IMG/VR virus record: IMGVR_UViG_3300046168_000026
Span: 32,001-96,000 of that record
Reading direction: 5' to 3' (one strand)
Length of the DNA: 64,000 nt
Source: a virus
The position numbers and the translations under genes were made by a program. The notes beneath the pieces were generated by a model. The model worked only from the letters and a program-made list of their open reading frames with translations. It searched no databases and was not told where the DNA came from. Positions 5,364 to 64,000 of the stretch are shown here, piece by piece. Position 1 is the stretch's first letter. Every line of letters begins with the position of its first letter.

Positions 5364-5435
5364 AGCGGAAAGGTGGAACTGCCCCACCATCTCCACATTG
5401 GTAATGTGGCGAGTTTCTTTTAACTCTTTTCCCGC
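5364..5435 (-). tRNA. non-canonical tRNA-Gly-like RNA, anticodon ACC
   Basis: GCGGGAA/TTTCCGC-T; D arm GAGT-TAAAAGAA-ACTC; CCACA-TTACCAA-TGTGG; T arm GGTGG-GGCAGTT-CCACC. Confidence 0.85.
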
Positions 5436-5439
5436 TTAG

Positions 5440-5511
5440 AGCGGAAGGTTGGAACTGCCCCAACTCCTTTGTACTGGATGTACAACGACTTTCTTTTAAG
5501 TCTTCTCCCGC
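5440..5511 (-). tRNA. non-canonical tRNA-Gly-like RNA, anticodon TCC (A at position 33)
   Basis: GCGGGAG/CTTCCGC-T; D arm GACT-TAAAAGAA-AGTC; TTGTA-CATCCAG-TACAA; T arm GTTGG-GGCAGTT-CCAAC. Confidence 0.85.
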
Positions 5512-40194: not shown

Positions 40195-40432
40195 TTTTAA
40201 TTATCCTTAAATTCTCTATTTTTTTGAGAAATTGTTCAACTGAATAGTCTTTGTTTTTTTCGTCTTTGATTTTTACTTCTGTAAGTGTATCAGGGTATTT
40301 GTTAACCAGCCTTTCAAGAATTTCGAAACCTTGGTCTGTCCAAAAATTCTTAAAGGATGTTTCACCTAAGATGTTTGTAGAATAGTCTACATCATCCTCA
40401 TTATCGTCTGGTAACAAAATGTAGTATATCAT
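40187..40432 (-). CDS. hypothetical protein
   Basis: ATGA-coupled to GT gene. Confidence 0.6.
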   Translation of the reverse strand: MIYYILLPDDNEDDVDYSTNILGETSFKNFWTDQGFEILERLVNKYPDTLTEVKIKDEKNKDYSVEQFLKKIENLRIIKNG

Positions 40433-46008: not shown

Positions 46009-46414
46009 CGAATTGTTTAAGTGTTTGTTCCCACGATTCAAACCTAATACCTCTGTCATCTATGTAACAGACTGCTCTTGGTTTTTCACAAGTTATTTCT
46101 TTTATATAAGTATCAATCTTATATTTGGCTAACCACTCCCATATTAGTTCTTCACCTGTCTTACCATTTACAAGTGGTCTATCAGGTTTTACTTTAGCGG
46201 TAAATAAAACTATATCATAACCCTTTTCATCGAACCATTTGATTGCGTCTATTGAACCCTCAATCGGTGGGTCATATACAGTTCCATCATGAAACCCTTT
46301 TGAATTACCATGGACAACACCATCAAAGTCTATTGCAACTTGATGATTGTTTTCATGCCATTGTAGTGCATCGTAGTCTTCTATTTCTTTTTTAAGGGTG
46401 TCTTCTGTTTTCAT
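45989..46414 (-). CDS. HAD-superfamily phosphatase
   Basis: IDFDGV, FTA, KP....IDDR. Confidence 0.8.
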   Translation of the reverse strand: MKTEDTLKKEIEDYDALQWHENNHQVAIDFDGVVHGNSKGFHDGTVYDPPIEGSIDAIKWFDEKGYDIVLFTAKVKPDRPLVNGKTGEELIWEWLAKYKIDTYIKEITCEKPRAVCYIDDRGIRFESWEQTLKQFDEITDK

Positions 46415-47129
46415 AATTACTGAATACTGGTGTTGATTTATTTCTACTTGAATATGCCCCATAAATAAACTTTCTAAACTCTTTAGTCTCGTGTTGTTTA
46501 CTTACAGAGTGTAATGAGTTTGGTGACGATAAAAAGAATACTGCTCTATTTGCTTTTGCTGGTATAACTGAGTGAATAAGTACTGGCTCTTTTTTGTATA
46601 AGTTAGGTGCACCACCCCTTGGTTGTTGATAAGTTTCTACTCCATCACTTGAATGTATTACAAAGTCACCACCACTCCAATCCTTATCATTAAAGAATAT
46701 TAAGAAGTTCAAAAATCTCTTCTGAGAATCTGCGTGTACTTCTCTAATATAACCATCACCTGCCTCTGACCAATCTATATGAGTAAACATTTTTTGATTT
46801 GATATTAACTCATCTGTTAAAGTACATCCCCAATGTTCCATAGAAGCTTGGAATTTCTGTTTAAAGTAGTTTAACATTTCATCTGAATCTATGTAATTGT
46901 GAAACTCATTCCATGTTGTTGTAGATTCTAACCACTTCCAAGTATCTGGTTGACTTGCACTATTTGCGATTTGTCTACGACCACCCATAACAGTATTTGC
47001 CTTTTCTTCTATGAGTTTACCTGGCCATTCCTTAACCAAATTATTAAAGATGTCTTGTTCAAAACAATCATCAATGACTATATAGTCATATGGATAATTG
47101 TATACTCTTGCATTATTAAAGTTAATCAT
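46392..47129 (-). CDS. 2OG-Fe(II) oxygenase
   Basis: HAD, NRAVFF, LHSV, RKF. Confidence 0.8.
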   Translation of the reverse strand: MINFNNARVYNYPYDYIVIDDCFEQDIFNNLVKEWPGKLIEEKANTVMGGRRQIANSASQPDTWKWLESTTTWNEFHNYIDSDEMLNYFKQKFQASMEHWGCTLTDELISNQKMFTHIDWSEAGDGYIREVHADSQKRFLNFLIFFNDKDWSGGDFVIHSSDGVETYQQPRGGAPNLYKKEPVLIHSVIPAKANRAVFFLSSPNSLHSVSKQHETKEFRKFIYGAYSSRNKSTPVFSNYENRRHP

Positions 47130-47514
47130 ATTTCTCGTATATTTTCTCTTCGAAAAATTCTGAGTTTAACAAGTGATTAATTTCTTTCTTTTCTGCTGCC
47201 CTTCTATCATTAGTATAATATACTGCTCTTGCCAACTCAATAAACTCTTCATCAAATTTATTGTCTCGTTCTTTTAGTCTAACTGAGTCTTCGATGACCC
47301 ACATTTCACCATTAGTTTTTAATAACCTTTGGTAAACTTCTTTAAGTTCATCACCACCTGCTTCCCAAAATGGTTTCAACTTATCTTGTAAATAATTTAG
47401 TTCATTTGTAATATTAGTTTTTTGAACTGAATCATTAACATTTTTTAATTTTATTTCAAGGATTGATAACTTATCAAATGCGTCACCAATCGGTGTTTTA
47501 ATCTCTATTGCCAT
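47122..47514 (-). CDS. DUF6165-like protein
   Basis: GDAFDKLSILEIK...W.IED..R...ARAVY.TND.R...K..IN. Confidence 0.75.
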   Translation of the reverse strand: MAIEIKTPIGDAFDKLSILEIKLKNVNDSVQKTNITNELNYLQDKLKPFWEAGGDELKEVYQRLLKTNGEMWVIEDSVRLKERDNKFDEEFIELARAVYYTNDRRAAEKKEINHLLNSEFFEEKIYEKYD

Positions 47515-48460
47515 AGTTCTTTATTTTTTTAGCACCTTCTTCTATTAACATTTTTTTAATACCATCTTCTAAATATACAAAATTTTTATGAGATACACAA
47601 CTTTTTAGTTTAGAAAGTGATGGTCGTCTCCATTTAGTATCGTTACCCCATGCTTCCTTGTATTTCTTTTTATATTTTTTACCCATGATTCTGTGAATAG
47701 TTTTAGCTAAATCTTTGATTCTAACTTCTTCATCAAATCCAATGTTTATGATTTCGTTATCAACTTTTTCAATAATCTGAGATGCCATTTCTGCGTGGTC
47801 TGTTACATAACAAAAAGACCTTGTTTGATTACCATCACCATGTAGATAAAACTCTTCGCCTGATTGTACTCTTTCTATAAATTCAGGTATTACTTGACCA
47901 TACCCATTTGTTGCCATTCTCGGGCCGTAAGTATTAAATGGTCTAAGAATCACAAAACTCTTTCTTTTCTCATTTGCCCACAACCTTGTCAAGAACTCAC
48001 CCATACCTTTTGAGGATGCGTATGAATCTCTATCTGCCAATGGATGTAGAATCATTGCGTCATCTTCTTTTGTTGGTATCGATGGAGTTGGTCCATAAAT
48101 TTCAGATGATGATGCGTATACTACTTTTGTTACTGAAGGTGTACATGCGTTCAATACATTCTGAGTCATTAAGATATTATTGTTACATACTTTAAATGGT
48201 ATATCATAAAAATACCTTGTACCATTTATTGCAGCGTAGTGAACAACTATTTCAAATTGTTGTTCTTCCATAAACTTTTTAATTGGTTCTTGGTAAACCA
48301 AATCCATCTCATAAAATTTAAAGTTTTCATGACTTGGTAAGTTATCTATTTTGCCTCTAAAAAAGTTGTCTACTCCAACAACCTCGTGACCTTTATCTAA
48401 TAAACTATCACAAAGATGTGAACCTAAAAATCCTGCTGCACCTGTAACTAATATCTTCAT
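47498..48460 (-). CDS. UDP-glucuronate decarboxylase-like NAD-dependent epimerase
   Basis: GAAGFLGSHL, ASSSEIYG, YASSK, RPFNTYGPRM, QTRSFCYV. Confidence 0.88.
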   Translation of the reverse strand: MKILVTGAAGFLGSHLCDSLLDKGHEVVGVDNFFRGKIDNLPSHENFKFYEMDLVYQEPIKKFMEEQQFEIVVHYAAINGTRYFYDIPFKVCNNNILMTQNVLNACTPSVTKVVYASSSEIYGPTPSIPTKEDDAMILHPLADRDSYASSKGMGEFLTRLWANEKRKSFVILRPFNTYGPRMATNGYGQVIPEFIERVQSGEEFYLHGDGNQTRSFCYVTDHAEMASQIIEKVDNEIINIGFDEEVRIKDLAKTIHRIMGKKYKKKYKEAWGNDTKWRRPSLSKLKSCVSHKNFVYLEDGIKKMLIEEGAKKIKNYGNRD

Positions 48461-49263
48461 TATATTTCGTATCTCATTCCTTTAGGAACTTTTTTAACAA
48501 ATTTGTCGTTTTCTTCGTCAATGAATCTGAATATGTCTACATCAATATCGTATTTTTTACATAGAACTTTCATTGCCTTTGTGTCTTTAGGTAAACACAT
48601 ACCACCATAACCACCAAACTCTTTATTTACATTTAGATAGTGACCTTCACCAACTCCATGGAATAAAAATGCGTCTTTGATTGCATCATAGTTTGCACCA
48701 AAATGTTGTGCTACTTTATGGAATGAGTTTGCAAATGTGATTCTCATCGCTTTGTAAGTGTTTGAGAAGTACTTCATAAGTTCGGCATCAATGATTTTGA
48801 CTTTTACTTTGTGAAATGGTAGTGAACCATGACTCTTTACAATCAAATCATAGTTTTCATCACTATCAGTACCAACAACTAAAATGTTATTGTTGTATAC
48901 AAAGTCTTCGTATGCACATCTTTCTCTTAAGAATTCAGGCACAAAACACATATTAAGATTTGGATATTCTTTTCTTAATCTATTTGTTGTACCAGGTTCA
49001 ATTGTACTTTTCAATGCTACAAGACCTTTATACTCCAAGTCATTTAATTGTTTTATTACACTATTAACTGCCGTTAAATCACATTCATCATTTGCACCTG
49101 TTGGAGTACCAACGGTAATAAAGTTGATTTCTGTATCTAATGTATCTTCTATTGAAGTCTCAGGTATTTTGATATCGTAACCAACCACCTCGTGTCCGAT
49201 GTATTCAAATCCTTTTGATATTGCAGAACCTACTGCTCCGATTCCGATTACTCCTAATTTCAT
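48460..49263 (-). CDS. UDP-glucose/GDP-mannose 6-dehydrogenase (lacks C-terminal domain)
   Basis: GIGAVG, VGTP, KST..PG, PEFLRE, AELMK, GYGGMCLPKD. Confidence 0.88.
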   Translation of the reverse strand: MKLGVIGIGAVGSAISKGFEYIGHEVVGYDIKIPETSIEDTLDTEINFITVGTPTGANDECDLTAVNSVIKQLNDLEYKGLVALKSTIEPGTTNRLRKEYPNLNMCFVPEFLRERCAYEDFVYNNNILVVGTDSDENYDLIVKSHGSLPFHKVKVKIIDAELMKYFSNTYKAMRITFANSFHKVAQHFGANYDAIKDAFLFHGVGEGHYLNVNKEFGGYGGMCLPKDTKAMKVLCKKYDIDVDIFRFIDEENDKFVKKVPKGMRYEI

Positions 49264-49922
49264 TCCCATATGTAATTCCATTTTTGTTTATGCCACTTAT
49301 TTTCTTTAATGTATTTTATAATATCATGATGTACCATCTTTGTATCAAAATAGTGTGGCTTACAATATAAATGACCAAAGAGTGGAACTCCACTCGTTAC
49401 TGAATCTGCCATATTCATAAAACTTCCTTCATAAACATGGATTTCTTTTGCGTTCTGTAATACTTTTCTGTAATCCAATATATGTCCTGCTCTACCATCA
49501 AGGTTTATCACAGGTAAATTTGGATTCATAAAATGTTTTCTGTTAATACCAATCATTGGACGATTCATATTATCAAGTGGTCTTTCATGTACGATTATGT
49601 AATCTTTACCATGCGTTTGAACCAACTCATTATATAATCTATCCTCTTCATTTACATCATAATCCCAAGTTAAATCTCGCCAACTACTATGTTCAACACC
49701 ATCTTGAAATTTTAATCCTATATGTGGTGCGTGATATTCATGAGGACAAGTGCCTGTTGATAGGTTTGGTGTCTCATTGTATAGTTTTTCAAATAACCAA
49801 TTTAGTCTTGGTACTTGTATGTATACTCTATCGTATTCTTTACAATACTTTTCTTTAATTACTGATGAGAACATTAAGCCATCACCAACTCCACCTGCGT
49901 GTCCTATTGTTATTGCTTCCAT
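49260..49922 (-). CDS. putative glycosyltransferase (GT9/GT-B-like)
   Basis: HAGGVGD start motif; cluster context. Confidence 0.5.
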   Translation of the reverse strand: MEAITIGHAGGVGDGLMFSSVIKEKYCKEYDRVYIQVPRLNWLFEKLYNETPNLSTGTCPHEYHAPHIGLKFQDGVEHSSWRDLTWDYDVNEEDRLYNELVQTHGKDYIIVHERPLDNMNRPMIGINRKHFMNPNLPVINLDGRAGHILDYRKVLQNAKEIHVYEGSFMNMADSVTSGVPLFGHLYCKPHYFDTKMVHHDIIKYIKENKWHKQKWNYIWE

Positions 49923-51646
49923 TAACTTAACATTTTTTCAACGATTTCGATATCTGATGGATAGTCAACTGCGTGTGATACATTGTCCACCATTACCATT
50001 TTTACTTTATGTCCCATCTCTATAAATCTATCAATCTCAATGTCTTCCTCAAATTCGAGTGGTGTCTTTTTACCATAATCGGCAAAGTCTTTTAGATGTT
50101 CTCTATTGAATCCGTAGATACAAACTTGTTTCATTGGATTACTGGTCTTACCCTGTTTTGTTCCTGGGAGTGGACTCCTTGAACACCAAATTAACTCATC
50201 ATTTAGATTTGTAATTACTTTTGGTATCTTTGGGTCTTCAATCTTTTCGTGAGGATTCAAATATGCCATACAATTTATAATATGGTCAGGGTTATCAATC
50301 TTAGCTTGAATAACTTTATCAATATCGTTTGCTGATAACATAGGTTCGTCACCTTGGACATTGATGATAAAGTCTGCGTCTATTTCCATTGCCGCTTCTG
50401 CTACTCTATCTGTACCCGTTGGACATTCGTCTGAAGTTAAGATTACTTTTAAACCATTGTTTTTTGCAACATCAACAATTTCTTCGTTTTCTGTTGCGAT
50501 GTAAACATTATCTTTACCCACCATCGAGTTTTGACATAGTTCAGCAACCCAAAGAATCATTTCTTTTCCATTAATCATCGCAAGAGGTTTTCCAGGGAAT
50601 CTTGATGATTTGTATCTTGCGGGGATAACTATCGCAACCTTTGGGTCTAAGACCCCATCAAGTTTTTTATTATCAAATGACTTCGATTCAGGTATGTCAA
50701 GTAATACATCTTCTATCCTATTAGGATGTAAGAACGATTGTTGTAAGTTCTGAGGATACAATGGGTGAATGTGTTTCAATCCACTAACCATATAGTTGTG
50801 TGTAAAACCCCATTTGTATTTTTCCATCAAAGGATTCATCCAATCAGAAATAACTTTTTGTAAGGGTTTACAATTGTATTGTGTCTTATCACCCCAAAGA
50901 AATTTTGTTTGGTCTTTTGCGTATTGTAGGTAAGTTACAAGTTGTTCTGTTTTAACATTTCCGACACCTCTACCCATTCCAAGTAAAGTACCATCTAACC
51001 AAAGTGCCCCTTCGGATTCTGCGGCAAGACAATTGGCGAATGCAAGTCCAAGGTTATCGTGTGTATGAATCCCAATCTTCGAATCACCTTCGAATAGTTC
51101 TACAATCTCTTTTGTTCTATCAGGAGTCAATGCTCCATATGAATCAGCAAAGTATAATGATAGTGGTTTTAATTCACCCATATCATTTACGAAAGTATTT
51201 ATTTCACTATCATCCAATAAAGATATACCCATCAGATTTACTATCAATTCGTAATCCTTTGATTGGATATATTTACCGATTTCGATTGCGAGGTCTAACT
51301 CCGAATACTTTATCGCGAGACGACAAATATCGAATGGTGAATTTTCCCCATCATGGATAACATCATCAATCAATGAGAAATCTACTTCATTACCTTTTAT
51401 GAAATCCTTTGCGTCAATCATAAACGCAAGTTTGAGGTTTACTGGCTTTCTATTGTCCAATACATCCCAAATGAACCTATCGTTACACTTACGATATTTA
51501 CCACCCTTAACAGGCGATTTGTAACCCATCTCCATTACTCCGACTCCCGAAAGGTCAAGGGCTTGTACTAAGTCTCTGACCATCTGAGTGTCAAAGTTCC
51601 AATTGGTGTAGTACCCACCATCTCTTAATGTACAATCTAATATCAT
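49922..51646 (-). CDS. fusion: DRE-TIM (HMGL-like) pyruvate aldolase plus CMP-Kdo synthetase (KdsB)
   Basis: LDCTLRDGG, ADSYG, HTHDN, GMGRGVGN; then IPARYKSSRFPGKPL, GTDR, NVQGDEP, AVD. Confidence 0.88.
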   Translation of the reverse strand: MILDCTLRDGGYYTNWNFDTQMVRDLVQALDLSGVGVMEMGYKSPVKGGKYRKCNDRFIWDVLDNRKPVNLKLAFMIDAKDFIKGNEVDFSLIDDVIHDGENSPFDICRLAIKYSELDLAIEIGKYIQSKDYELIVNLMGISLLDDSEINTFVNDMGELKPLSLYFADSYGALTPDRTKEIVELFEGDSKIGIHTHDNLGLAFANCLAAESEGALWLDGTLLGMGRGVGNVKTEQLVTYLQYAKDQTKFLWGDKTQYNCKPLQKVISDWMNPLMEKYKWGFTHNYMVSGLKHIHPLYPQNLQQSFLHPNRIEDVLLDIPESKSFDNKKLDGVLDPKVAIVIPARYKSSRFPGKPLAMINGKEMILWVAELCQNSMVGKDNVYIATENEEIVDVAKNNGLKVILTSDECPTGTDRVAEAAMEIDADFIINVQGDEPMLSANDIDKVIQAKIDNPDHIINCMAYLNPHEKIEDPKIPKVITNLNDELIWCSRSPLPGTKQGKTSNPMKQVCIYGFNREHLKDFADYGKKTPLEFEEDIEIDRFIEMGHKVKMVMVDNVSHAVDYPSDIEIVEKMLS

Positions 51647-51699
51647 AGGAAATTTGTTAAAATTTTCTTTCGACACACGAATCGTTCCCAAAATGTGGG

Positions 51700-52323
51700 T
51701 TACACGAGGGTGTCATAATAGTCGTTTTGTTTTACTTGTTTTTCTATATCTTTGTGATGGAACAATGATAGTTCCTCAACCCAAGGTAAATTAGAAATCG
51801 TGTCATATCCATCGAGTTTCTCGTGTACCTTATTTATCCAACGAATGGAGTCTGATTTTTTATAAACTCTCCATTGTGGGTCTGGCCAATTTACTCGACC
51901 CTTATCATCAACCTTCCACCCCCACTTCTGAATGTACTCATCGGTTAACCCATCTACCAAATTTACTCTTGGTACAAGAATCACATCAACACCATTCATT
52001 TCAAGGATTGCTGGAAGGTTTTCAATCAATTCATTATTAGGGATTTCATCTGCGTCAATCTGAAAGATGTAATCACCATTACATAAATCTGTTAATTTGT
52101 TTTTCCAATTTGCGAAGTGTCCATCGAACTCACCACTATGCCATGAGTAAGTCGGATTTACTGATTTTGCTCTGAGGTATTCTTCTACTTTTGTATCACC
52201 ATTCTTAGAATCGTATAGAACTACGATTTCATCTTCGTCTCTGATATTGTCTAATAGGTAAGGTATTAGTTTTTGAATTTCTACCAACTCATTACAAACT
52301 GTAATTGCGTAACTTATTTTCAT
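51700..52323 (-). CDS. glycosyltransferase family 2
   Basis: ISYAITVCNE, IDADE, W..KVHE. Confidence 0.88.
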   Translation of the reverse strand: MKISYAITVCNELVEIQKLIPYLLDNIRDEDEIVVLYDSKNGDTKVEEYLRAKSVNPTYSWHSGEFDGHFANWKNKLTDLCNGDYIFQIDADEIPNNELIENLPAILEMNGVDVILVPRVNLVDGLTDEYIQKWGWKVDDKGRVNWPDPQWRVYKKSDSIRWINKVHEKLDGYDTISNLPWVEELSLFHHKDIEKQVKQNDYYDTLV

Positions 52324-52332
52324 ACTTTATTT

Positions 52333-52848
52333 TTATAATCCTACGGGTGGAGTATCTTGTGTGGTCTCCAAATCCGTATCGTCCTTTCGAACTTGTTCTT
52401 GTTGTCTTCGTTCTGACCTTGATGCTACTTTATCAAATACACCATAGTCATAGTTATAAATTGTTATCTGACCTACATTCTTTTCAACCAAAGTTCTATA
52501 ACCATTTTGAAGGTCTTTGTTCTTTAGTTTAGAAGTGTAGAATTGTTTAGAGTTAACTTCTACTCTCAATTTACTCAAATCTAACTTTTTAATTTGAGGA
52601 GTAGTACTTGTTACCTCATTCAAATCCTCTGCAAGTTTAGTAAACTTGTCGGGTGCACAATCTTTTAAATCTAAACAATGAAAGTAATTCTTGAATTTAG
52701 GTTGTAAGATAAAGACAAACATATCTCTCTGAGAGTTGTCTCGTTTCTTATACCTAATCTTTGCAACCATACCTCTTTCTAATTTAGTCTTAGAAACTCT
52801 TGTAGGGTCTGTTAATTTACTTCTATGTCTACTTGTAAAATCTGGCAT
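52333..52848 (-). CDS. hypothetical protein
   Basis: ORF coupled to upstream stop. Confidence 0.65.
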   Translation of the reverse strand: MPDFTSRHRSKLTDPTRVSKTKLERGMVAKIRYKKRDNSQRDMFVFILQPKFKNYFHCLDLKDCAPDKFTKLAEDLNEVTSTTPQIKKLDLSKLRVEVNSKQFYTSKLKNKDLQNGYRTLVEKNVGQITIYNYDYGVFDKVASRSERRQQEQVRKDDTDLETTQDTPPVGL

Positions 52849-54128
52849 TACTTTTTCTTCAATTTAGGTAGTTTCAATCCAACTTGAGTAGGACCTTCAC
52901 CAACTTTATATTGTGTTAACAACTCACCTAACTTCTCTGTCATCTTATCTTGAGTAAAGTTAGTTTTTACATAATGTCTGTTTTTACGAGACATTACCAC
53001 TGCTTTTTTGTAATTGTTATAAACTGTTTTTAGAACACCACCTGCTTGTTGATGGTCAATCTTGAACCATTTTGCTTGTTCAAGAATCCATTTGTTTGCA
53101 GCTGATTTATGGACATTCTCTAATTTACCACCCACTAAAAAGTTATATTCTTTATTTAAGAAATCTACATGACCACTCCAAGCTGATGCTATAATTGGTT
53201 TACCACTAACACATGCCTCAAGTAATGGTCTACCGAATCCTTCACCATGAGTAAATGATACATGAGATTTTACTTTTGGATGGTTGTATACTGAATTCAT
53301 TTCTTCATCAGTCAAATCACCATCTAAAATATAAATATTAGGAAAGTTAGTTCCACCAATTCTATTTTTACATCTTTCAATTGTTTTTCTTAGTCGATGT
53401 ATATTTGATATTGATGGTTGTCCATTATTAGTTTTTAGAACCAACGCAGGTTTAGTTTTGTTTTTAAAAGATGTTCCCTTAAATGTATTCAAAAATACTT
53501 TTACTAATGAATATATGTTTTTTCTATCTTGACCATCTGCGCCTGGTAACCAATGACCCACAAATAAGAAACAAAAGTTTTCTGGTATTTTGTCAAATAC
53601 TTTTTTAACAGTATTGTTTATAGGTGCTTTATTGTCAAAAACCTTTGTGTCAAATCCCTCGAATAAAACTTCAACAGGTTTTTCTAATTTCAACTCACCC
53701 ATTTTTTGTTTTGTCTGGTCATTGAGTTTATCATAAACTGCCGATAAAGTTCTTGCTGAATGTTCTGACGAAACCATAGTTAAGTCCATTCTATTACACC
53801 CATCGATAAATTCTGCAGGCGCATCTGATGTTTCGATAACTGCTGATACACCAATATTAAAATGACCTACTGGTTGAAACTCTGATGGAATTGTCATTTG
53901 AATCCAAATATCTGGCTTCGATTCCATTTTAGGACTGATTCTTGAAGTCAAATCCGAATCATCAGGTGTCAATGCGTTGATAGGAGTTTGTCCCCATCGT
54001 TGAGACAATATTCTAATGTCCCACTCATCACCCTTTAACTGAATTAATGACCTTACGAAATCTCTACTTCTTGCACCATAACCACTTCTTGTAGCTATTG
54101 GACAACTAATTACACATACTTTTTTCAT
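52848..54128 (-). CDS. glycosyltransferase family 4 (GT-B)
   Basis: SGYG, RKN, EGFGRPLLEA. Confidence 0.9.
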   Translation of the reverse strand: MKKVCVISCPIATRSGYGARSRDFVRSLIQLKGDEWDIRILSQRWGQTPINALTPDDSDLTSRISPKMESKPDIWIQMTIPSEFQPVGHFNIGVSAVIETSDAPAEFIDGCNRMDLTMVSSEHSARTLSAVYDKLNDQTKQKMGELKLEKPVEVLFEGFDTKVFDNKAPINNTVKKVFDKIPENFCFLFVGHWLPGADGQDRKNIYSLVKVFLNTFKGTSFKNKTKPALVLKTNNGQPSISNIHRLRKTIERCKNRIGGTNFPNIYILDGDLTDEEMNSVYNHPKVKSHVSFTHGEGFGRPLLEACVSGKPIIASAWSGHVDFLNKEYNFLVGGKLENVHKSAANKWILEQAKWFKIDHQQAGGVLKTVYNNYKKAVVMSRKNRHYVKTNFTQDKMTEKLGELLTQYKVGEGPTQVGLKLPKLKKK

Positions 54129-55537
54129 ATCTTGTAAATATCAAATCTTTGTCTTGGTTTCCAATTTTCAAAACAAGTATCAATTGCTTCAATAAATTTC
54201 TCACCCATTGTTTCGGCTGCCATATCACCTGCACCCATAATAAATTCATGTCCTTTCATACCTGCGGATGTACACTCATCCCTACCCTTACTATACCATT
54301 TATCTATTGCCGAACCGATGTCTTTATAAGAACATCTATCATCAAATATATAAGGAGTAACGGGTGACCCTTGTAGTGAACGATTAGAAGGCCAGATTGG
54401 TTCAACCCATTCACCCCAAGTCAGTTCGTCTATAATTGGATTATCTTTATCGTGTAAAGAACCAATCTCAACATAATCATCTCCAGTTAAGAACTCACCA
54501 TTTAGTTTAAATCCACATTGGTCTTGCAATCCACCTGTAACATTTACAATGATAGGAGTACCTGCTCGTAATGCTTCACAAGAACCTAAACCAAACCCTT
54601 CGTTTGATGCGACATTTAATACCACATCACATGAGTTATAAAACATATTTAATGCTTCCGTACTTAGTTTTCCATCTGAAAACTTTACATCACAATTTTT
54701 TACATTCATTTTTACCAATTCAGGAAGGTCTGTACCATTATCATCAATTGGATTTGTATGCATGAACAATAGTACTTTTTTGTTTGGATGTTTCTTTGCA
54801 AACTCTTCTACTCCTAAAACAACATCACCTGGAACTTTTCTACGAATGTTTCTGTTACACCATCCGAGAATAAAGTCATAATCATTAATACCACATTCTT
54901 CTTTGTATGCTATTAAATTAGTATCTGTATCTGATAGTGGTTTGAATAAGTTAGTTACTCCATGTGGAATATACTTGAAAGACCAATCTCCTCTGTCTTC
55001 ACCATACCAATCCATTACTCTTTTGTTAATACCATATGTTTGTTTGGATATACCTAACAACAAGTCACAACTTGCGTAAAATGGTGCATTCCAATGTGGG
55101 TCAGGTAATGAGTCCCATATATTGTAATACATGATTGGACAAATCTGTCTAACCTCATTTTCCATATCATACAACCATCCCCAAAATCTTGGGTCAGTAA
55201 AGTGTAGTATTGCGTCTGGTTTTTCTACATTCAATAATTCTCTTAAAACTTCAGGATTACCATAACTTGTATGGGCGTATATCTTTACAGATGCGTCTTC
55301 TATGCCTGTAAGTTTTCTAACATCATCATCTAAAATGAATTGTTTACCATGGTCGGGATGCTTTAATGCAGCCCCCAATTGTACCCAATCATATTTGTGT
55401 ACTGTTGATAGTACGATTTCTTTTGATTGTGTTGCAATCCCACTATGTAATCGTAAATCATCGGAAAGTAAAAGTATCTTTGGTTTCTTAACCTTATTCT
55501 TAGATACCTTCTTTAGTTTTGGTAGTTCTATGCTCAT
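54125..55537 (-). CDS. glycosyltransferase family 4 (GT-B)
   Basis: IPHG, RNIRRK, NEGFGLGSCEA, TGGLQD. Confidence 0.9.
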   Translation of the reverse strand: MSIELPKLKKVSKNKVKKPKILLLSDDLRLHSGIATQSKEIVLSTVHKYDWVQLGAALKHPDHGKQFILDDDVRKLTGIEDASVKIYAHTSYGNPEVLRELLNVEKPDAILHFTDPRFWGWLYDMENEVRQICPIMYYNIWDSLPDPHWNAPFYASCDLLLGISKQTYGINKRVMDWYGEDRGDWSFKYIPHGVTNLFKPLSDTDTNLIAYKEECGINDYDFILGWCNRNIRRKVPGDVVLGVEEFAKKHPNKKVLLFMHTNPIDDNGTDLPELVKMNVKNCDVKFSDGKLSTEALNMFYNSCDVVLNVASNEGFGLGSCEALRAGTPIIVNVTGGLQDQCGFKLNGEFLTGDDYVEIGSLHDKDNPIIDELTWGEWVEPIWPSNRSLQGSPVTPYIFDDRCSYKDIGSAIDKWYSKGRDECTSAGMKGHEFIMGAGDMAAETMGEKFIEAIDTCFENWKPRQRFDIYKI

Positions 55538-57801: not shown

Positions 57802-57864
57802 CTCTAATATACGACAATTTGACGAGAATGCCAAATTTTAATGTTATTAAATTGTTAAGTTTTT
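57802..57864 (-). promoter_or_regulatory. repeated extended promoter element, copy 9
   Basis: AAAACTTAACAATTTAATAACATTAAAATTTGG-N19-TATATTAG. Confidence 0.7.
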
Positions 57865-58273
57865 ACTTAGCCCACTTCTTTCTTTGGACTATCTGAGAGA
57901 TAATTCCATATACACTCAAATCTTCGTAAGTGTCTTGGATATTCTCACCAACCTCATCGGGTTGACCTAATACAACTAATTGCTTTAGTCTTTGGATTTT
58001 ATCGTTTTTTCTAAACCATAAACCAACTAATGATAGTTTGATATCTTCGTCTGATTCTAAATTAGTTCCAACCGATATATTACCTGGCCCATAGTTTCTT
58101 TGTTTTTTACAAAATGTTTCATACATTTCATCTAAAATCTTTTGGAACTCTGATGTAGTTTCTGGGTATAATCTTTCACAATATTCTACTGCGTTTTCTT
58201 CTACATTTCTTTTTTCAGTTCTCTCACCCTTCCACTCTACTTTATTTTTTCTGTCTTTTATTACTTTAGCCAT
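57863..58273 (-). CDS. nucleotide modification-associated domain 1 (DUF1599) protein
   Basis: KKQRNYG..NI, R..DKIQRL, E.I.DT..DL..YGII. Confidence 0.75.
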   Translation of the reverse strand: MAKVIKDRKNKVEWKGERTEKRNVEENAVEYCERLYPETTSEFQKILDEMYETFCKKQRNYGPGNISVGTNLESDEDIKLSLVGLWFRKNDKIQRLKQLVVLGQPDEVGENIQDTYEDLSVYGIISQIVQRKKWAK

Positions 58274-58704
58274 TTTTTTATTTCTTTTTTATCTAACCCA
58301 TATTTTAACAATATTTCAGTAATATTGTCTTTACTAAGTATTTCAAGATAGTCTCTGACTTCTCTTTGTGATACTGAGTAGTACTTTGCAAGATACTCCA
58401 ACACATTGGAATTATACTTGTCATCTTTTTTACCTTTTATGTATTTGTCAAAAGACCTTTTCTTTGGTAAAAAATCAAGATACATTTTATAAACATCTCT
58501 TGGACTGAGTTGACCAATAGTAAACTTTTGTAGCTCGTTAACCAACTCCAATAATCCCATATTCATAGACAAAAACCTATTGACCATAAATGGTTCAAAG
58601 GTTTTTTTATCCATAACTGACAGACTATCCCAAGAAGTTTTTGACTCCTTAAGTCCAGATAGATGTTGAAATAATGTCTTAGCCTTCTTGGTTGTCGCCA
58701 TCAA
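58261..58704 (-). CDS. clamp loader small subunit (T4 gp62-like)
   Basis: PFMVNRFLS, YY.VS.RE...YL; next to RFC gene. Confidence 0.75.
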   Translation of the reverse strand: MMATTKKAKTLFQHLSGLKESKTSWDSLSVMDKKTFEPFMVNRFLSMNMGLLELVNELQKFTIGQLSPRDVYKMYLDFLPKKRSFDKYIKGKKDDKYNSNVLEYLAKYYSVSQREVRDYLEILSKDNITEILLKYGLDKKEIKKWLK

Positions 58705-58969
58705 TTAGTTCTTTCGGTGTAAATTTAGGATGAACAGTTCCACAATTGTTACACAATACAACAGGTATTGGTAACATTGATGCTACACCATTTGGTGATT
58801 GTACTGCTGGTACTTCTTTATACATTGTTACTTCGTCAAAAAATATCCCACCACACTCAGGACAACTTACTGTCTCTAATTTTCTTGGGTCAAGTTTTAA
58901 TTGAGGTTGTTGTTGTGGGTTTTGTTGACCACCCAAGTTAACAACTTTACCTTTTCCTTTTTTTGCCAT
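58679..58969 (-). CDS. zinc-ribbon protein
   Basis: CPECG and CNNCG. Confidence 0.7.
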   Translation of the reverse strand: MAKKGKGKVVNLGGQQNPQQQPQLKLDPRKLETVSCPECGGIFFDEVTMYKEVPAVQSPNGVASMLPIPVVLCNNCGTVHPKFTPKELIDGDNQEG

Positions 58970-58972
58970 AAT

Positions 58973-59893
58973 TTATTTTCCTAATGTCATTAAAATAGTT
59001 AATACCATAGCCATCACATTGATTTCTTTATCAACTACCATAGAGTCTTTGTACTGACCCTCGGCTATATTTAAAATAGTGTGTCCGACTTTACCATTTG
59101 CATATGAATCTACTTCATCATAAAGTGCTCTATACAATGGTGTAAAGTCTTTCACTTTTGAATCTGCAATAATTTGTCTGATTGTGTTGAACTTTGTTTT
59201 CATTTCACCACTATCTTGTAAAACTTTTATTACATCTTCAGTATAGTTCGCCTGAATTGTAGAGGTTGTATCTATTTGTAATTCACCTTTGACAACTTGT
59301 CTTTGTGCTGAATTTAGAACTCTACGAATGTCAGGATAACCACTATTGACCAAAATTGCCAACTCTTCTTTTTCAAACTTAACTGATTCCTCATTTAATA
59401 TATCAAACAATCTTTTTGCCACTTCTTTTTTAGAAGGTGGTGTTATTGCGAATGTTTGACAACGAGATTGAATCGGGTCAATAATTTTCTCTACATAGTT
59501 ACAAGTTAAAATGAACCTTGTAGATTTACTAAAAGTTTCCATAAGATTACGAAGTGCTGCTTGTGCATTTGGTGTCAAATAGTCAGCTTCGTCTAATATG
59601 ATAACTTTCCACTTTCTGAAACCCATTGATGATGCAAATCCACGAATCTTGTCACGAACTGCGTCAACTGAGTTTTCATCAGAAGCGTTAATATACATCA
59701 AATCACAATCAATCTGATTTGTGATTATCTTTGCGAGGGTAGTCTTACCAGTTCCTGCAACTCCATAGAGTAACAAGTGAGGTACATCCTCATTTTCAAT
59801 GTATATTTTTACTTTGTCTAATATATGTTGATTACCAACATATCCATCTAATGTATCGGGTCTGTATTTTTCAACCCATAGTGAATTGCTCAT
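58973..59893 (-). CDS. clamp loader ATPase subunit (RFC / T4 gp44-like)
   Basis: WVEKYRP, GVAGTGKT, NASD, DEAD, SRC. Confidence 0.95.
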   Translation of the reverse strand: MSNSLWVEKYRPDTLDGYVGNQHILDKVKIYIENEDVPHLLLYGVAGTGKTTLAKIITNQIDCDLMYINASDENSVDAVRDKIRGFASSMGFRKWKVIILDEADYLTPNAQAALRNLMETFSKSTRFILTCNYVEKIIDPIQSRCQTFAITPPSKKEVAKRLFDILNEESVKFEKEELAILVNSGYPDIRRVLNSAQRQVVKGELQIDTTSTIQANYTEDVIKVLQDSGEMKTKFNTIRQIIADSKVKDFTPLYRALYDEVDSYANGKVGHTILNIAEGQYKDSMVVDKEINVMAMVLTILMTLGK

Positions 59894-61080
59894 CTACCTA
59901 CTTCTTTTAAATATGTTTCTTTTGCGTTTTCCCAAGTCATCCCAATAATATCCATGTAATACAATGTATCTGGTTTCAACCTATTCTCATCATGTAACTT
60001 AGTGTATCTTCTAATAGCTTTCTTCTTCCACCATCTGATTGTGTAATCATCACCTTCTTCGAACTTCTTTTTCATCTTCAACTGACTTTCATCAATCTCG
60101 TTTCTTAGAAACTCATTACCATTATCATACATCATTGCGAAGTATACACCTCGTTTAAATCCATGTTGATATTGTGTACTTTTGATTCCCAACTCTTTGA
60201 AAATCATAGACAATATTCTTTGTTTGATACCAGATACAGGTCCTTGGATACCTTCCTTTTGGGTTGTAACTCTTTTGTATTCATCAGCATTATGTTCTTT
60301 CATCCATTGATGCCAGATATCGTAAAATTGATTATCAGGTTTAGTAGAAACTTTACCTGTCGATTCACCTAATGTTTTGAAATGTGGTATTCCATTATAT
60401 TGTGAATGGATTCCATAAAGAGAAGTTGTACCAACTGCGATTAGAGTTTGTCCATACTTTTCTTTCCACAAATCTCTGAATGTAGGTGAAGTGGTCAATG
60501 CCGAAACAAGTTTACCACCTAAGAAATTATATCCCAAAGGTTGTGTTGCGATGATAGATGTACCAATTGTAGTATGATTTAACTTACCATCTTTAAACTT
60601 GTTATCTTTATCCCACCCAATGTATTTATCACGAACACCTAAAGATGTTACATCAGAACCAAGTGAAATTACACCAAGTACTTTACCACTCTTTCGGTCT
60701 TTAGCAAATGCTTTTATATTACGACCTGGATTAGCGGTAAATTCCATTGATGAAATACACTTACGAATATCAGTCCACTTTGCCGTTCCTGCAGAATCTA
60801 CGATTAGTTCAACATAAGGTTCTAACTCTTCAATTTCTTTAATAGTTTGTTCCTTATTTTGAATGTCAGTTGGAGTCCAAATCATATCATAAGACCTTGC
60901 AAGACTTGGTTTTCTTGACATAGACTTAGGTAGGTCTGAGTTCCACTCCTGCCACTTTTTATAAAGAGTTTGTTCCTCAACTGGCATACCTGATAGGTAT
61001 TCCATATTGTCGATGAATCGTTTTCTCTCTACATCATAGTCAAAGACTGGTGCCGCTGGTTCTGTGTCCCAAAATTGCAT
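59890..61080 (-). CDS. DUF4338 / DruA-like protein (probable Mom-related GNAT fold)
   Basis: PGR, GKVLGVISLGS, RDKYIGW, QPLGYNFLGGKL, TTSLYG.HSQYN, LG.S.G. Confidence 0.7.
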   Translation of the reverse strand: MQFWDTEPAAPVFDYDVERKRFIDNMEYLSGMPVEEQTLYKKWQEWNSDLPKSMSRKPSLARSYDMIWTPTDIQNKEQTIKEIEELEPYVELIVDSAGTAKWTDIRKCISSMEFTANPGRNIKAFAKDRKSGKVLGVISLGSDVTSLGVRDKYIGWDKDNKFKDGKLNHTTIGTSIIATQPLGYNFLGGKLVSALTTSPTFRDLWKEKYGQTLIAVGTTSLYGIHSQYNGIPHFKTLGESTGKVSTKPDNQFYDIWHQWMKEHNADEYKRVTTQKEGIQGPVSGIKQRILSMIFKELGIKSTQYQHGFKRGVYFAMMYDNGNEFLRNEIDESQLKMKKKFEEGDDYTIRWWKKKAIRRYTKLHDENRLKPDTLYYMDIIGMTWENAKETYLKEVGR

Positions 61081-61775
61081 TACTTAATCTCCACTAAATA
61101 ATAGTTAGACTTAAATCCATCATTTTCAAATGAAACATGAGCTAATCCATTTGGTGAAATCTTCAATGAAGATGATTTTGCACCCTTGTTAGCATTAAGG
61201 ATTTCCTTTAAGTACTTAGCTGAGAATGATATTGGTTCTACATCACCATCACACTCACATTCTACATTGATTGAGATTCTGTTAGAGTTAATCTTTGAAT
61301 AACCTAAGATTACTTCACCTTTGTTACTTTTACAACTAAATGTAAATGTATCTGAATCAGATAATGCACCTTTAGACTTTACGAATTTGTTTACGAAGTC
61401 ATTGTCCATTTTGATAGTAGATGTAAAATCAGGTAATTGTTTCAAATCTGGAACAACAGGTATTACAGAAAGGTCAGCCAACATATAGTTTACTGAAGTA
61501 CCTTTATCTGAGAACACAAGTGCTGCGTCACCTTCTTTTACACTAATATCTGAATCTAATACAGATAATAGTCCTTTTAATTGAGAAGTAGTGTAAACAC
61601 CATACTCTCCAGTTGGAAAGTCTTTGTTATCACTACTTACATTTCCTAATAGGGTCTTATCATCAGAAATGAATTTTACTGACAACCCTGCATCTGTTGA
61701 ATCAATCTTTACTGATTCTACCTCACCACCCAAATTATATCGAGTAATGAACCCTTCAAACGAGCTTTTTTTCAT
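61080..61775 (-). CDS. sliding clamp (T4 gp45/PCNA-like)
   Basis: 231 aa, FP..E.GVY...L...L and FSAKYL...YYLV patterns; between polymerase and clamp loader. Confidence 0.8.
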   Translation of the reverse strand: MKKSSFEGFITRYNLGGEVESVKIDSTDAGLSVKFISDDKTLLGNVSSDNKDFPTGEYGVYTTSQLKGLLSVLDSDISVKEGDAALVFSDKGTSVNYMLADLSVIPVVPDLKQLPDFTSTIKMDNDFVNKFVKSKGALSDSDTFTFSCKSNKGEVILGYSKINSNRISINVECECDGDVEPISFSAKYLKEILNANKGAKSSSLKISPNGLAHVSFENDGFKSNYYLVEIK

Positions 61776-61805: not shown

Positions 61806-61840
61806 TACTAATATACGAAATTTATTTTTAAAATCCAAAA
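61806..61840 (-). promoter_or_regulatory. Bacteroidota-type promoter for the clamp operon
   Basis: TTTGG-N19-TATATTAG overlapping the polymerase stop. Confidence 0.6.
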
Positions 61841-63999
61841 AATTCTGCAGCTTTATTTAGATTTGGGTTTGGTTTTTCCCAATTCATAGCTTTATAGAAG
61901 TCATCAAGTTTATTTTCTAACTCCTTTTCCCAAATTCTATCGTAGTCAATATATTGTTCAACGAGTTTTAGAATCTGAGGTGGGTCGTTGTGACCTTTTA
62001 GTCCTGTTGTATCCAATCCAAGAGGATTTGTTTTCAAATATACCCATTTAATCTTATCACCATCTTTCATTGGTTCGTACTTATATGGTACTTTATAAAA
62101 AGCAAGTAATTGATTATATGTTATTGCTGCCTTCACATGCGCTGGTGAACCTTTTACAAATTCACCTAATACTTGAGTCTTTGTTGTGTACTTACTCATA
62201 CCTTTGACTGCCGAGTTCTTTGCTATATCAATGAATGGGCGTTCTTCCATATCTTTTTTGTAGTCAAGAATCTTAGTGTCAATTTCTTTTTTATCAACTG
62301 ACCTTAGTATATCTAATAATACAGTTTTCATTACTTCTTTAAAATATGTTGGGAATGAACTTCGTTTTACATCCAATCCTTTTACATCCAACTTATCACA
62401 ATCAACTTCATTATCATTAATAATCCATTGTGCGTATCGTTTCTTTGAGACCCAAAACCCACCCTTAGCGATTGTTTCTTGTTTTATATCAAATTTATGA
62501 GTATCGATATTAAATAACTTTTTTGACATCGTGTCATAAACTTTATTGATATGACCTTCGACTTCTTTTGCTGCGGATATAATCGCAGGAATCATTTCTT
62601 CATCCGACTCTTCATTAAGTTCTGGATTACGAGCTTTTACTAATGGTGCTGCTTGATAAAAAACAGAATCAGTATCGGTATAAACATTGTAGTCATCTTC
62701 TTTTCCTATTACTTTTGAATAATATTGATTTGCAATTAATTCGGTTGTTTTAATTACAGTTTGACCTGTAATCGTAGTTGCTTCTGCATTATCTACATCG
62801 TAGAATCTGAATGATGGTAATCCCAACACTCCATATAAAGAGTTCAACATAATCTTTTGTACTAATTGTCGTTTACCATAAAACTTATATTGTGCATCGT
62901 TACCCTCTTTACCATATTTTTTCATCAAGTCTTTGTATTCAACTCGTTTGTCAAACCAAACACTTAATATTTCAGGTATAACTCCAACTTTATCTGTTCT
63001 ATATAAAACACCATTTGCAGCAACAGAGTATCTATTCTTTTCAATAAACTTTAGAAATTTATCTTTAGGTAGTGGTGGAAACTCATTACCCTCATCATCC
63101 AAAATAGAGTAAGTATCAATCTTACCTCTCATATGGTCTTCTGCTACATAATTCTTAAGTTTACCAATCTTAGTTTCAGGTGAGATATTGATACTCATAA
63201 TGATTGATGGATATAGTGATGTTAAATCCAAATCATAAACCCATTTGTAAAGACCAGGTTTTGGTTCTTTTACATATGCGCCTGTAAACTTCCCTTCACC
63301 ATCAGACCCATCTGCGTTTCGTTTCTTTCTCCATGGTTTATTGGGTGCTACCCTACCACTCCTTCTAAGGAATGTAAGAATAGCTCCCTCTAACCATTTA
63401 GATGAAAACAGAAAGTCTTCGTAGAACACATGACCTGTATGACATATTGCCCTTGCTAAGTCAATGAATTGTAATTTCTTATCCAAGTCAACTACCAACT
63501 CAACATCAACTAAGTTATACTCAATAAACTTTTCAATATCATCTCTGAATAGTTGGTCTAAGTTTCCTTCATACTCAATCTTACCTCGACCTAACTCAAT
63601 TGTTGCAACAGTATCTAATCGATAGTTGGGTAGTTCTGTAAAGTTATAACACTTATATAAAGCGAGATAATCTAATGCAGATACTCCTGCAATAATATAT
63701 CTGTTTCTGTACTTGTTGTATGATACTTTACCAATTGGTGATAATTGATTTGCATATTGTTGACCGAATAGTAGTTTATATCTATTGTAAAGATATGTAA
63801 CATCAAAGAAATCAATATTCCACCCCGTTACAATAGTTGGATTTATCTCTCTCCACTTGGACATAAACGCTGATAATAATCCCTCTTCAGTATCAAATGA
63901 TTCTACCTTTGCACCTTTGATTGTTTTATCAATCTTTTCACCTTTGTTAACTACATAGACAAAATAGTCATTTGTAATTGAGTCATGTGCTGCGATTGA
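61828..63999 (-). CDS. family B DNA polymerase (5' end beyond window)
   Basis: GWNIDFFD exoII, YNLVD exoIII, DLTSLYPS, KIMLNSLYG, YTDTDS, KKRY; frame stays open to window edge. Confidence 0.97.
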   Translation of the reverse strand, partial: SIAAHDSITNDYFVYVVNKGEKIDKTIKGAKVESFDTEEGLLSAFMSKWREINPTIVTGWNIDFFDVTYLYNRYKLLFGQQYANQLSPIGKVSYNKYRNRYIIAGVSALDYLALYKCYNFTELPNYRLDTVATIELGRGKIEYEGNLDQLFRDDIEKFIEYNLVDVELVVDLDKKLQFIDLARAICHTGHVFYEDFLFSSKWLEGAILTFLRRSGRVAPNKPWRKKRNADGSDGEGKFTGAYVKEPKPGLYKWVYDLDLTSLYPSIIMSINISPETKIGKLKNYVAEDHMRGKIDTYSILDDEGNEFPPLPKDKFLKFIEKNRYSVAANGVLYRTDKVGVIPEILSVWFDKRVEYKDLMKKYGKEGNDAQYKFYGKRQLVQKIMLNSLYGVLGLPSFRFYDVDNAEATTITGQTVIKTTELIANQYYSKVIGKEDDYNVYTDTDSVFYQAAPLVKARNPELNEESDEEMIPAIISAAKEVEGHINKVYDTMSKKLFNIDTHKFDIKQETIAKGGFWVSKKRYAQWIINDNEVDCDKLDVKGLDVKRSSFPTYFKEVMKTVLLDILRSVDKKEIDTKILDYKKDMEERPFIDIAKNSAVKGMSKYTTKTQVLGEFVKGSPAHVKAAITYNQLLAFYKVPYKYEPMKDGDKIKWVYLKTNPLGLDTTGLKGHNDPPQILKLVEQYIDYDRIWEKELENKLDDFYKAMNWEKPNPNLNKAAEFFGF

Positions 64000-64000
64000 A

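What the first reader, a model, noticed from the sequence alone, without database searches (positions are those of the whole stretch)
57863..61775. DUF4338/DruA-like (Mom-related) enzyme embedded in the replisome operon: candidate Gly-tRNA-dependent, replication-coupled DNA modification system
Seen: the 396-aa gene 59890-61080 overlaps both the sliding clamp stop and the clamp loader start, with an Nmad1/DUF1599 gene further down the same run. No other Druantia gene is in the window. Its motif order (G.LGVI.LG ... P..N..GKL ... TTSLYG.HSQY...F..LG.S.G) parallels, by eye, the GNAT-fold phage Mu Mom family. Established: Mom makes N6-carbamoylmethyladenine, whose side chain is a glycinamide, and its activity is linked to replicating DNA. 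From memory (needs verification), Gly-tRNA-Gly has been reported as its donor. Inference: this phage pairs a clamp-associated base-modifying transferase with dedicated non-ribosomal tRNA-Gly donors (5364-5511) to protect its DNA from restriction. The two loci are about 54 kb apart, so the link rests on chemistry, not synteny.
Basis: inference. Interest (0 to 1): 0.82.

Follow-up and report, generated by a model that had tools for sequence, protein, structure and literature searches.

The report
Phage DNA-glycylating enzymes with private tRNAs
This uncultured T4-like phage places three relatives of the phage Mu DNA-disguising enzyme Mom among its replication genes and carries two glycine tRNAs that look unfit for the ribosome; enzymes and tRNAs occur together across phages and are missing together in a close relative, so the phage probably brings its own activated glycine to modify its DNA, though no experiment shows this yet.

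Summary
Observation confirmed. The 396-aa gene is a DruA/DUF4338 protein. Its confident model has a GNAT fold, and the top match among 48,161 chains is Mu Mom (Z 10.1). Mom's catalytic residues are replaced, so it is Mom-like, not a Mom member. The two tRNA-Gly look-alikes are real and covary. They keep GlyRS identity elements but lack D-loop GG, T-loop TTC and the strong EF-Tu pair. Nine of ten long relatives carry tRNA, DruA-like and Mom genes. A 94%-complete relative lacks all three but keeps the flanking tRNAs; other relatives put a DNA glycosyltransferase in the same slot. In pelagiphage-like viruses the tRNA lies 20-79 nt behind DruA-like or Mom genes. Cultured HTVC008M has it as its only tRNA, with two DruA-like genes and no Mom. 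Best reading: Gly-tRNA-dependent DNA base modification with private donors (0.6). The base, the adduct and clamp binding are inferred. DUF1599 is not part of the system. The scan noted this pairing before on other genomes; I found no paper on it.

The parts
59890..61080 (-). DruA/DUF4338-family, Mom-like GNAT protein (396 aa); candidate Gly-tRNA-dependent DNA base transferase with a conserved, disordered N-terminal FW tail
5440..5511 (-). Non-canonical tRNA-Gly, anticodon TCC, A at position 33, degenerate D and T loops, U51-A63; CCA not encoded
5364..5435 (-). Second non-canonical tRNA-Gly, anticodon ACC, same degenerate loops and U51-A63; CCA not encoded
61080..61775 (-). Sliding clamp (context; inferred docking site for terminal aromatic motifs)
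   Evidence: phrog_223 E 3.4e-8; synteny
61828..64000 (-). Family B DNA polymerase, 838 aa, runs off the window, C-terminal FFxF motif (context). Directly upstream of it, OUTSIDE the window, lie two true Mom genes that belong to the system: MomB (262 aa, genome C1:96373-97161, L001:8374-9162) and MomA (250 aa, genome C1:97148-97900, L001:9149-9901)
   Evidence: polymerase; MomA and MomB: PDB 8BV8 E 3.4e-11 and 6.3e-9, PF25680 E 1.8e-45 and 2.9e-47, catalytic residues
58973..59893 (-). Clamp loader large subunit (context)
58261..58704 (-). Clamp loader small subunit (context)
   Evidence: PF16790 E 1.5e-6

Best explanation
The phage encodes a glycyl-tRNA-dependent DNA-modification module. (1) It transcribes two tRNA-Gly variants, and host enzymes add CCA and charge them with glycine (inferred from intact G1-C72, C2-G71, G3-C70, C35/C36 and U73). 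(2) With no D-loop GG, no T-loop TTC, the weak U51-A63 pair and often no U33, they mostly escape EF-Tu and the ribosome and form a protected Gly-tRNA pool (sequence shown; escape inferred by analogy to staphylococcal non-proteogenic tRNA-Gly). (3) Mom-superfamily GNATs in the replisome operon use this pool. MomA and MomB most likely glycylate adenine N6 in particular sequence contexts, as Mu Mom does (family membership shown, activity inferred). The DruA-like protein shares the fold but has its own active site, and most likely transfers glycine to a different base, position or context (inferred). (4) The enzymes probably reach new DNA through the sliding clamp via short terminal FW/FF tails (inferred). 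(5) The purpose is partial, sequence-specific protection from host nucleases (inferred).
For: Fold: model pLDDT 94.4; best structural match of 48,161 chains is Mom 8BV8, Z 10.1, rmsd 4.0, 171 aligned, next GNAT Z 8.7. A short DUF4338 family bridges the two by profile (87%, E 4e-6 to Mom; 99.3% to the target). Mom uses Gly-tRNA-Gly on dsDNA (PMC13219725). Slot: the DruA-like gene follows the clamp in 71 of 79 clamp-anchored loci. In the other 8 a TET-associated DNA glycosyltransferase (PF20691 E 9e-36; phrog_842) or a 496-aa putative glycosyltransferase takes the place. Nine of 10 cyanophages inspected also have it between clamp-loader genes. tRNA: 43 distinct clade sequences have U73 43/43, U51-A63 43/43, the Gly acceptor pairs 42/43, no TTC loop, and A33 in 27; compare S. 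aureus NP tRNAs (PMC13443448). Co-occurrence: 9 of 10 long relatives carry tRNA, DruA-like and at least two Mom genes. G070 (180.8 kb, 94% complete, polymerase 87% identical) has no DruA-like gene, no Mom and no odd tRNA, yet keeps the flanking tRNA-Ala, tRNA-Glu and flanking genes. Of 120 loci picked by a second odd-tRNA pattern alone, 27 hold a DruA-like gene and 5 a Mom gene; controls gave 0/113 and 4/120. In eight the tRNA lies 20-79 nt behind the enzyme's stop. 15 of 17 such contigs of 20 kb or more that were searched whole carry DruA-like genes, 1 carries Mom. HTVC008M and Mosig carry the odd tRNA and DruA-like genes with no Mom hit. Terminal FW: 119/120 DruA-like homologues, 21/21 MomB; only 5 of 209 genome ORFs have such termini, three of them in this operon.
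Against: No biochemical or DNA-modification data exist for this phage. Mom's essential residues are not kept in the DruA-like protein (R111 to T174, S124 to G188, D149 to L221; only Y159 about Y228, invariant in 102/102, a transitive profile mapping), and the direct profile match is negligible (3%, E 0.013). The Mom paper itself warns that GNAT co-substrates cannot be read from the fold, and Mu Mom works with all host tRNA-Gly isoacceptors, so a private tRNA is not required. DruA-positive cyanophages carry only canonical tRNA-Gly in the regions examined. A complete 135-kb phage (G027) has a similar odd tRNA-Gly, with C51-G63, and no DruA or Mom hit. The 120 loci are not independent: 2 DruA and 2 Mom clusters at 50% identity. 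The co-loss rests on one near-complete genome. The tRNA-adjacent DruA-like proteins are only 28-29% identical to the target. The genome still avoids GATC (0 against 1292 expected) and ACGT (2 against 472), so protection is not global.
Confidence: 0.6

Rival explanations
1. In this phage the odd tRNAs feed only MomA/MomB. The DruA-like protein is a DNA-modifying GNAT with another donor (acyl-CoA or another aminoacyl-tRNA), or acts in a second step on an already modified base.
For: MomA/B keep the Mu catalytic set and the DruA-like protein does not. In G070 Mom and DruA-like genes are missing together, so the co-loss cannot tell them apart. Four tRNA-adjacent genes elsewhere are Mom genes.
Against: HTVC008M and Mosig keep the odd tRNA with DruA-like genes and no Mom hit. 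15 of 17 long odd-tRNA contigs have DruA-like genes but only 1 has Mom. Four loci place the tRNA 45-58 nt behind a DruA-like gene, and two control loci place a canonical tRNA-Gly directly in front of one.
Confidence: 0.2
2. The DruA-like protein uses the private Gly-tRNA but glycylates a non-DNA target, such as a replisome or virion protein, an RNA, a glycan or the host envelope, in the manner of Fem or L/F transferases.
For: Its active site differs from Mom's. Aminoacyl-tRNA-dependent GNATs act on peptides, lipids and proteins. The genome has many glycosyltransferase-like genes near this operon. FemA appears among the fold matches, Z 7.7.
Against: The nearest fold is Mom, 2.4 Z above FemA. 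The slot is exchanged with a TET-associated DNA glycosyltransferase. Homologues are fused to ParB-like and uracil-DNA-glycosylase domains.
Confidence: 0.12
3. The tRNAs serve translation (extra Gly supply for glycine-rich tail proteins, or resistance to host tRNA nucleases), and their association with the enzymes reflects shared ancestry.
For: Anticodons ACC and TCC match the two commonest Gly codons (GGT 2461, GGA 1007), though my search patterns favoured them. Two collagen-like genes are 26-27% Gly. This genome has no canonical tRNA-Gly. G027 has an odd tRNA-Gly without the enzymes.
Against: Loss of GG, TTC, the strong 51-63 pair and often U33. G002 keeps a canonical tRNA-Gly beside two odd ones. 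The tRNAs lie directly behind enzyme genes in eight loci and are missing, with flanks intact, in G070.
Confidence: 0.08

Closest known systems
Phage Mu Mom (Pfam PF25680, PDB 8BV8; PMC13219725)
   Same: GNAT fold and nearest solved structure of the DruA-like protein. MomA and MomB are sequence members with the catalytic set largely intact. Donor class Gly-tRNA-Gly.
   Different: Mu has one enzyme, uses host tRNAs and expresses it after replication. Here two Mom paralogues and a DruA-like enzyme with another active site sit in the replisome operon, with phage-encoded degenerate tRNA-Gly.
Druantia type I DruA (DUF4338, PF14236)
   Same: Pfam and PADLOC family match. DruA-like proteins in six Synechococcus phages were noted structurally in the Phold preprint (10.1101/2025.08.05.668817).
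   Different: Stand-alone in a phage replication operon, with none of the tested neighbours being Druantia genes. No function for DruA was found in the papers searched.
Staphylococcus aureus non-proteogenic tRNA-Gly NP1-3 with FemX/A/B (PMC13443448)
   Same: tRNA-Gly lacking G18-G19, U55 and strong EF-Tu determinants, serving an aminoacyl transferase.
   Different: Phage-encoded, with different loop sequences and no match in 185,579 prokaryote genomes by pattern. The inferred acceptor is DNA, not peptidoglycan.
T4-type replisome-linked base-modifying enzymes (e.g. DNA glucosyltransferases; TAGT PF20691)
   Same: Encoded among clamp, loader and polymerase genes; a TAGT occupies the very same slot in relatives.
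   Different: They transfer sugar from NDP-sugars to hydroxymethyl-pyrimidines (own knowledge), not an amino acid from tRNA.

Membership tests
Mom family (DruA-like 396-aa protein) | Sequence match to PF25680 / 8BV8 | tested here: not met
   No PF25680 hit, no PDB sequence hit, direct profile match 3%
Mom family (DruA-like 396-aa protein) | GNAT fold resembling Mom | tested here: met
   8BV8 top of 48,161 chains, Z 10.1, rmsd 4.0, 171 aligned
Mom family (DruA-like 396-aa protein) | Essential R111, S124, D149, R151 | tested here: not met
   Transitive profile mapping gives T174, G188, L221, about G223; only Y159 about Y228 is kept; no residue-level structural alignment was available
Mom family (MomA, MomB outside the window) | PF25680 match and catalytic residues H58, Y59, R111, S124, D149, Y159 | tested here: met
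Mom family (MomA, MomB outside the window) | R151 (essential in Mu) | tested here: inconclusive
   K in 15/15 MomA; E, G or F in MomB; also not R in most other homologues
Mom family (any of the three) | Gly transfer from Gly-tRNA to adenine N6 of dsDNA | not testable with these tools
   needs LC-MS or an in vitro assay
DruA / DUF4338 protein family | PF14236 above the gathering score | tested here: met
   67 bits against 27
Druantia type I defence system | Operon with DruB-E | tested here: not met
   Neighbours are clamp, loader, polymerase and nuclease genes; a genome-wide DruE search was not run
Non-proteogenic tRNA-Gly | Cloverleaf with GlyRS identity elements | tested here: met
Non-proteogenic tRNA-Gly | Loss of G18-G19, U55 and strong EF-Tu pair | tested here: met
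   No TTC loop and U51-A63 in 43/43; D-loop GG absent at the usual place in nearly all (criteria)
Non-proteogenic tRNA-Gly | Charged but excluded from translation | not testable with these tools
   needs aminoacylation and EF-Tu assays

The most novel reading that the evidence does not exclude
DUF4338/DruA proteins are a second, widespread family of aminoacyl-tRNA-dependent DNA base transferases with an active site unlike Mom's, making an undescribed glycine-derived DNA base. Abundant aquatic T4-like phages supply it with dedicated non-ribosomal tRNA-Gly and dock it on the sliding clamp, so several base modifications are written during replication. Bacterial Druantia DruA would then be a self-marking or DNA-modifying enzyme of the same chemistry.
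Probability: 0.4. Interest if true: 0.9.

Novelty: new variant of a known kind. Interest (0 to 1): 0.76.

Why it matters
Mom was only recently shown to use charged tRNA on DNA, and it borrows host tRNA. Phage-encoded, ribosome-evading tRNAs devoted to DNA chemistry, and a second enzyme family with a different active site, would extend that chemistry to a widespread group of T4-like phages. It would give DUF4338/DruA, an uncharacterised defence-system component, a testable function. It would also explain a class of phage tRNA genes that standard annotation misses. Two cultured pelagiphages (HTVC008M, Mosig) carry the DruA-only version, so the question can be tested now.

Tried and rejected
Complex prediction of the clamp trimer with DruA-like residues 1-32 gave no answer (score 0.28, mark 0.32); it is not used as evidence either way. 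Foldseek against PDB gave only weak GNAT/p300 rows, none at E <= 0.001. Sequence and profile searches of PDB with the DruA-like protein found nothing. Direct hhalign to Mom was uninformative; an intermediate family was needed. My first tRNA pattern was too loose (113 of 119 not this RNA) and served as a background control. The Fisher value printed used a wrong control count and is not used. blastn of the odd tRNAs against cultured phages found only Mosig itself. The 143-nt gaps behind DruA-like genes in S-PRM1 and S-CAM9 showed no tRNA by eye or with model R2. Five DruA-less contigs had no odd tRNA, but they are fragments, and the two longest end before the tRNA region, so they are not counted. 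DUF1599 was rejected as a member of the system. Iyer et al. 2013 (NAR gkt573), which from memory discusses Mom-like phage families, was not held, so prior prediction there cannot be excluded. Paper searches combining DruA/DUF4338 with Mom/GNAT or odd phage tRNA-Gly found no description.
Full report
Observation. The window is C1:32001-96000 of a 176,264-bp phage genome, 34.5% G+C and about 97% complete. The 396-aa ORF at 59890-61080 (-) overlaps the clamp stop by one base and the clamp-loader start by four. It is a PF14236 DruA member (E 1.6e-18) and the only one in the genome. The run on the minus strand reads: polymerase B, clamp, DruA-like, loader large subunit, zinc ribbon, loader small subunit, weak DUF1599, PD-(D/E)XK nuclease. 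The family is large: 2724 clusters at 90% identity and 1037 at 50%, some fused to ParB-like or uracil-DNA-glycosylase domains.

What the window hid. Directly upstream of the polymerase, beyond the window's end, lie two tandem Mom genes (genome 97148-97900 and 96373-97161). They match the Mu Mom structure 8BV8 at E 3e-11 and 6e-9 and PF25680 at 2e-45 and 3e-47. Both keep H58, Y59, R111, S124, D149, Y159 and W181; MomA has K and MomB has E at R151. The polymerase and clamp are thus bracketed by three Mom-superfamily genes. Relatives add further Mom genes, short DUF4338 genes and glycosyltransferase-like genes between them.

Fold and active site. A model from 102 sequences has pLDDT 94.4, with residues 1-5 disordered. 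Of 48,161 solved chains the best match is Mom (Z 10.1, rmsd 4.0, 171 residues), ahead of ordinary GNATs at 8.7 and FemA at 7.7. A short DUF4338 family aligns to Mom at 87% (E 4e-6) and to the target at 99.3%. Through that bridge Mom R111, S124 and D149 fall on T174, G188 and L221, and Y159 falls near the invariant Y228. The family has its own near-invariant set: R150, Q180-P181, G188-G189-K190, T218-T219-S220-L221 and R310. It is therefore built like Mom but is not a Mom member, and its acceptor or chemistry probably differs. This mapping is indirect.

The donor chemistry. PMC13219725 shows that Mom transfers glycine from Gly-tRNA-Gly to adenine N6 of dsDNA, followed by rearrangement. It accepts all E. 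coli isoacceptors and acts post-replicatively. The paper does not mention DruA or DUF4338 and warns that GNAT co-substrates cannot be read from structure.

The RNAs. Two 72-nt cloverleaves at 5440-5511 (TCC) and 5364-5435 (ACC) lie between tRNA-Ala and tRNA-Glu. Rfam misses both. The stems covary (11 of 21 pairs with changes on both sides; slid controls 1-4). Among 43 distinct clade sequences U73 and U51-A63 are invariant, the Gly acceptor pairs hold in 42, no T loop has TTC, and 27 have A33. S. aureus non-proteogenic tRNA-Gly are defined by similar losses (PMC13443448). The genome has no canonical tRNA-Gly, while relative G002 has one beside two odd ones. A pattern scan of GTDB genomes found none.

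Co-occurrence within the clade. Nine of ten long relatives carry the odd tRNA, a DruA-like gene and two to four Mom genes; the exception is 66% complete. Anchoring on the clamp instead, 71 of 79 loci have the DruA-like gene next. In the other eight the slot holds a TET-associated glycosyltransferase (PF20691 E 9e-36, phrog_842) or a 496-aa protein that looks like a glycosyltransferase by eye only; six of the eight also lack MomA and MomB there. One genome with the 496-aa gene is near-complete (G070, 180.8 kb, 94%; clamp 79%, polymerase 87%, loader 89% identical). It has no DruA-like gene, no Mom and no odd tRNA, while a positive control rang in each search. It keeps tRNA-Ala, tRNA-Glu and both flanking genes in the same order, and keeps DUF1599. 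This is a single co-loss event, but a clean one.

Co-occurrence in another lineage. A pattern for a second form of the RNA (7-nt D loop) returned 120 viral loci. Of these, 27 contain a DruA-like gene and 5 a Mom gene, against 0 of 113 background loci and 4 of 120 loci picked by canonical tRNA-Gly. In two of those four the tRNA-Gly sits right before the DruA-like gene. In eight loci the odd tRNA starts 20-79 nt after the stop of a DruA-like (4) or Mom (4) gene. Of 17 contigs of 20 kb or more searched whole, 15 carry DruA-like genes and 1 carries Mom. In cultured HTVC008M the only tRNA gene found is this RNA, with two DruA-like genes, one directly after the polymerase, and no Mom hit. Mosig is similar. 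Caveats: these loci are mostly kin; the adjacent enzymes are a paralogous type 28-29% identical to the target; DruA-positive cyanophages showed only canonical tRNA-Gly; and a complete 135-kb unrelated phage has a similar RNA, with C51-G63, and no enzyme hit.

Replisome link. Nine of ten cyanophages inspected also place the gene between clamp-loader subunits. The disordered N-terminus carries FW in 119 of 120 close homologues, MomB ends in FW in 21 of 21, and most polymerases end in FFxF. Only 5 of 209 genome ORFs have such termini, and several slot-replacing genes also end in FF or FW. From my own knowledge, this resembles PIP-box and T4 gp45-binding tails. Clamp docking is an inference from these motifs and from gene position.

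Function. The genome lacks GATC entirely and nearly lacks ACGT, and GATC loss is shared by relatives without the enzymes. Any protection is therefore probably sequence-specific and partial, as Mom's is in Mu.

Verdict. The components, fold, RNA anatomy and co-distribution are shown. Glycyl transfer, target base and clamp binding are inferred. I put 0.6 on the DruA-like protein being a Gly-tRNA-dependent DNA modifier in this module, and about 0.8 on the tRNAs being donors for DNA modification by at least one of the three enzymes (best explanation plus first rival). It is a new variant of the Mom and Fem principles that I did not find in the searchable literature. Earlier notes of this scan reached the same pairing on other genomes and saw the Mom pair and the tRNAs here; they are not independent support. 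What I tested here myself: the Mom pair beside the DruA-like gene, the exchangeable modification slot, the co-loss in G070 and the terminal motifs.

Noticed in passing
L547:10706-12196 and L547:9329-9952; L550:10699-11952 and L550:6210-7391: Relatives without DruA-like and Mom genes carry alternative modification candidates in the same slots: a 496-aa protein with no family hit, a methyltransferase-like gene, a TAGT glycosyltransferase and an ABC-ATPase-GNAT fusion (phrog_11143), most with terminal FF/FW.
   Followed up: partly
L012:5613-6731, L017:5600-6733, L012:3815-5611: 372-379-aa glycosyltransferase-like genes directly upstream of the polymerase in many relatives (absent here), and a 598-aa protein with no Pfam hit beside them.
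   Followed up: partly
L029:4063-4782, L035:8663-9256, L002:8639-9253, L042:2224-2931: Additional variable short DUF4338 and Mom paralogues inserted around the polymerase; the short DUF4338 type keeps Mom-like H and R residues.
   Followed up: partly
whole genome: GATC occurs 0 times (1292 expected, both strands), ACGT 2 (472), CTAG 68 (718); GATC absence is shared across most of the clade.
   Followed up: partly
L319:8577-8651 (G027, complete 135 kb) and L140:4327-4401: Odd tRNA-Gly(TCC) with C51-G63 in unrelated phages with no Mom or DruA hit; another use or an undetected transferase.
   Followed up: partly
genome C1:134678-141159: Two collagen-like genes with 26-27% glycine, mostly GGT codons.
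   Followed up: partly
genome C1:97897-100902 (L001:9898-12903): HTH gene, 2OG-Fe(II) oxygenase, a flavoprotein resembling UDP-galactopyranose mutase (by eye) and a glycosyltransferase between ribonucleotide reductase and the Mom pair; the HTH gene is kept even when the Mom genes are lost.
   Followed up: no
KC465899.1:91140-91214; MT647606.1:7778-7852: Odd tRNA-Gly(ACC) in cultured pelagiphages HTVC008M (not annotated in the region shown) and Mosig (under a hypothetical CDS, missed by Rfam).
   Followed up: yes
window 40429-55537: Long run of glycosyltransferase and sugar-nucleotide-like genes (by eye) downstream of the replisome operon.
   Followed up: no
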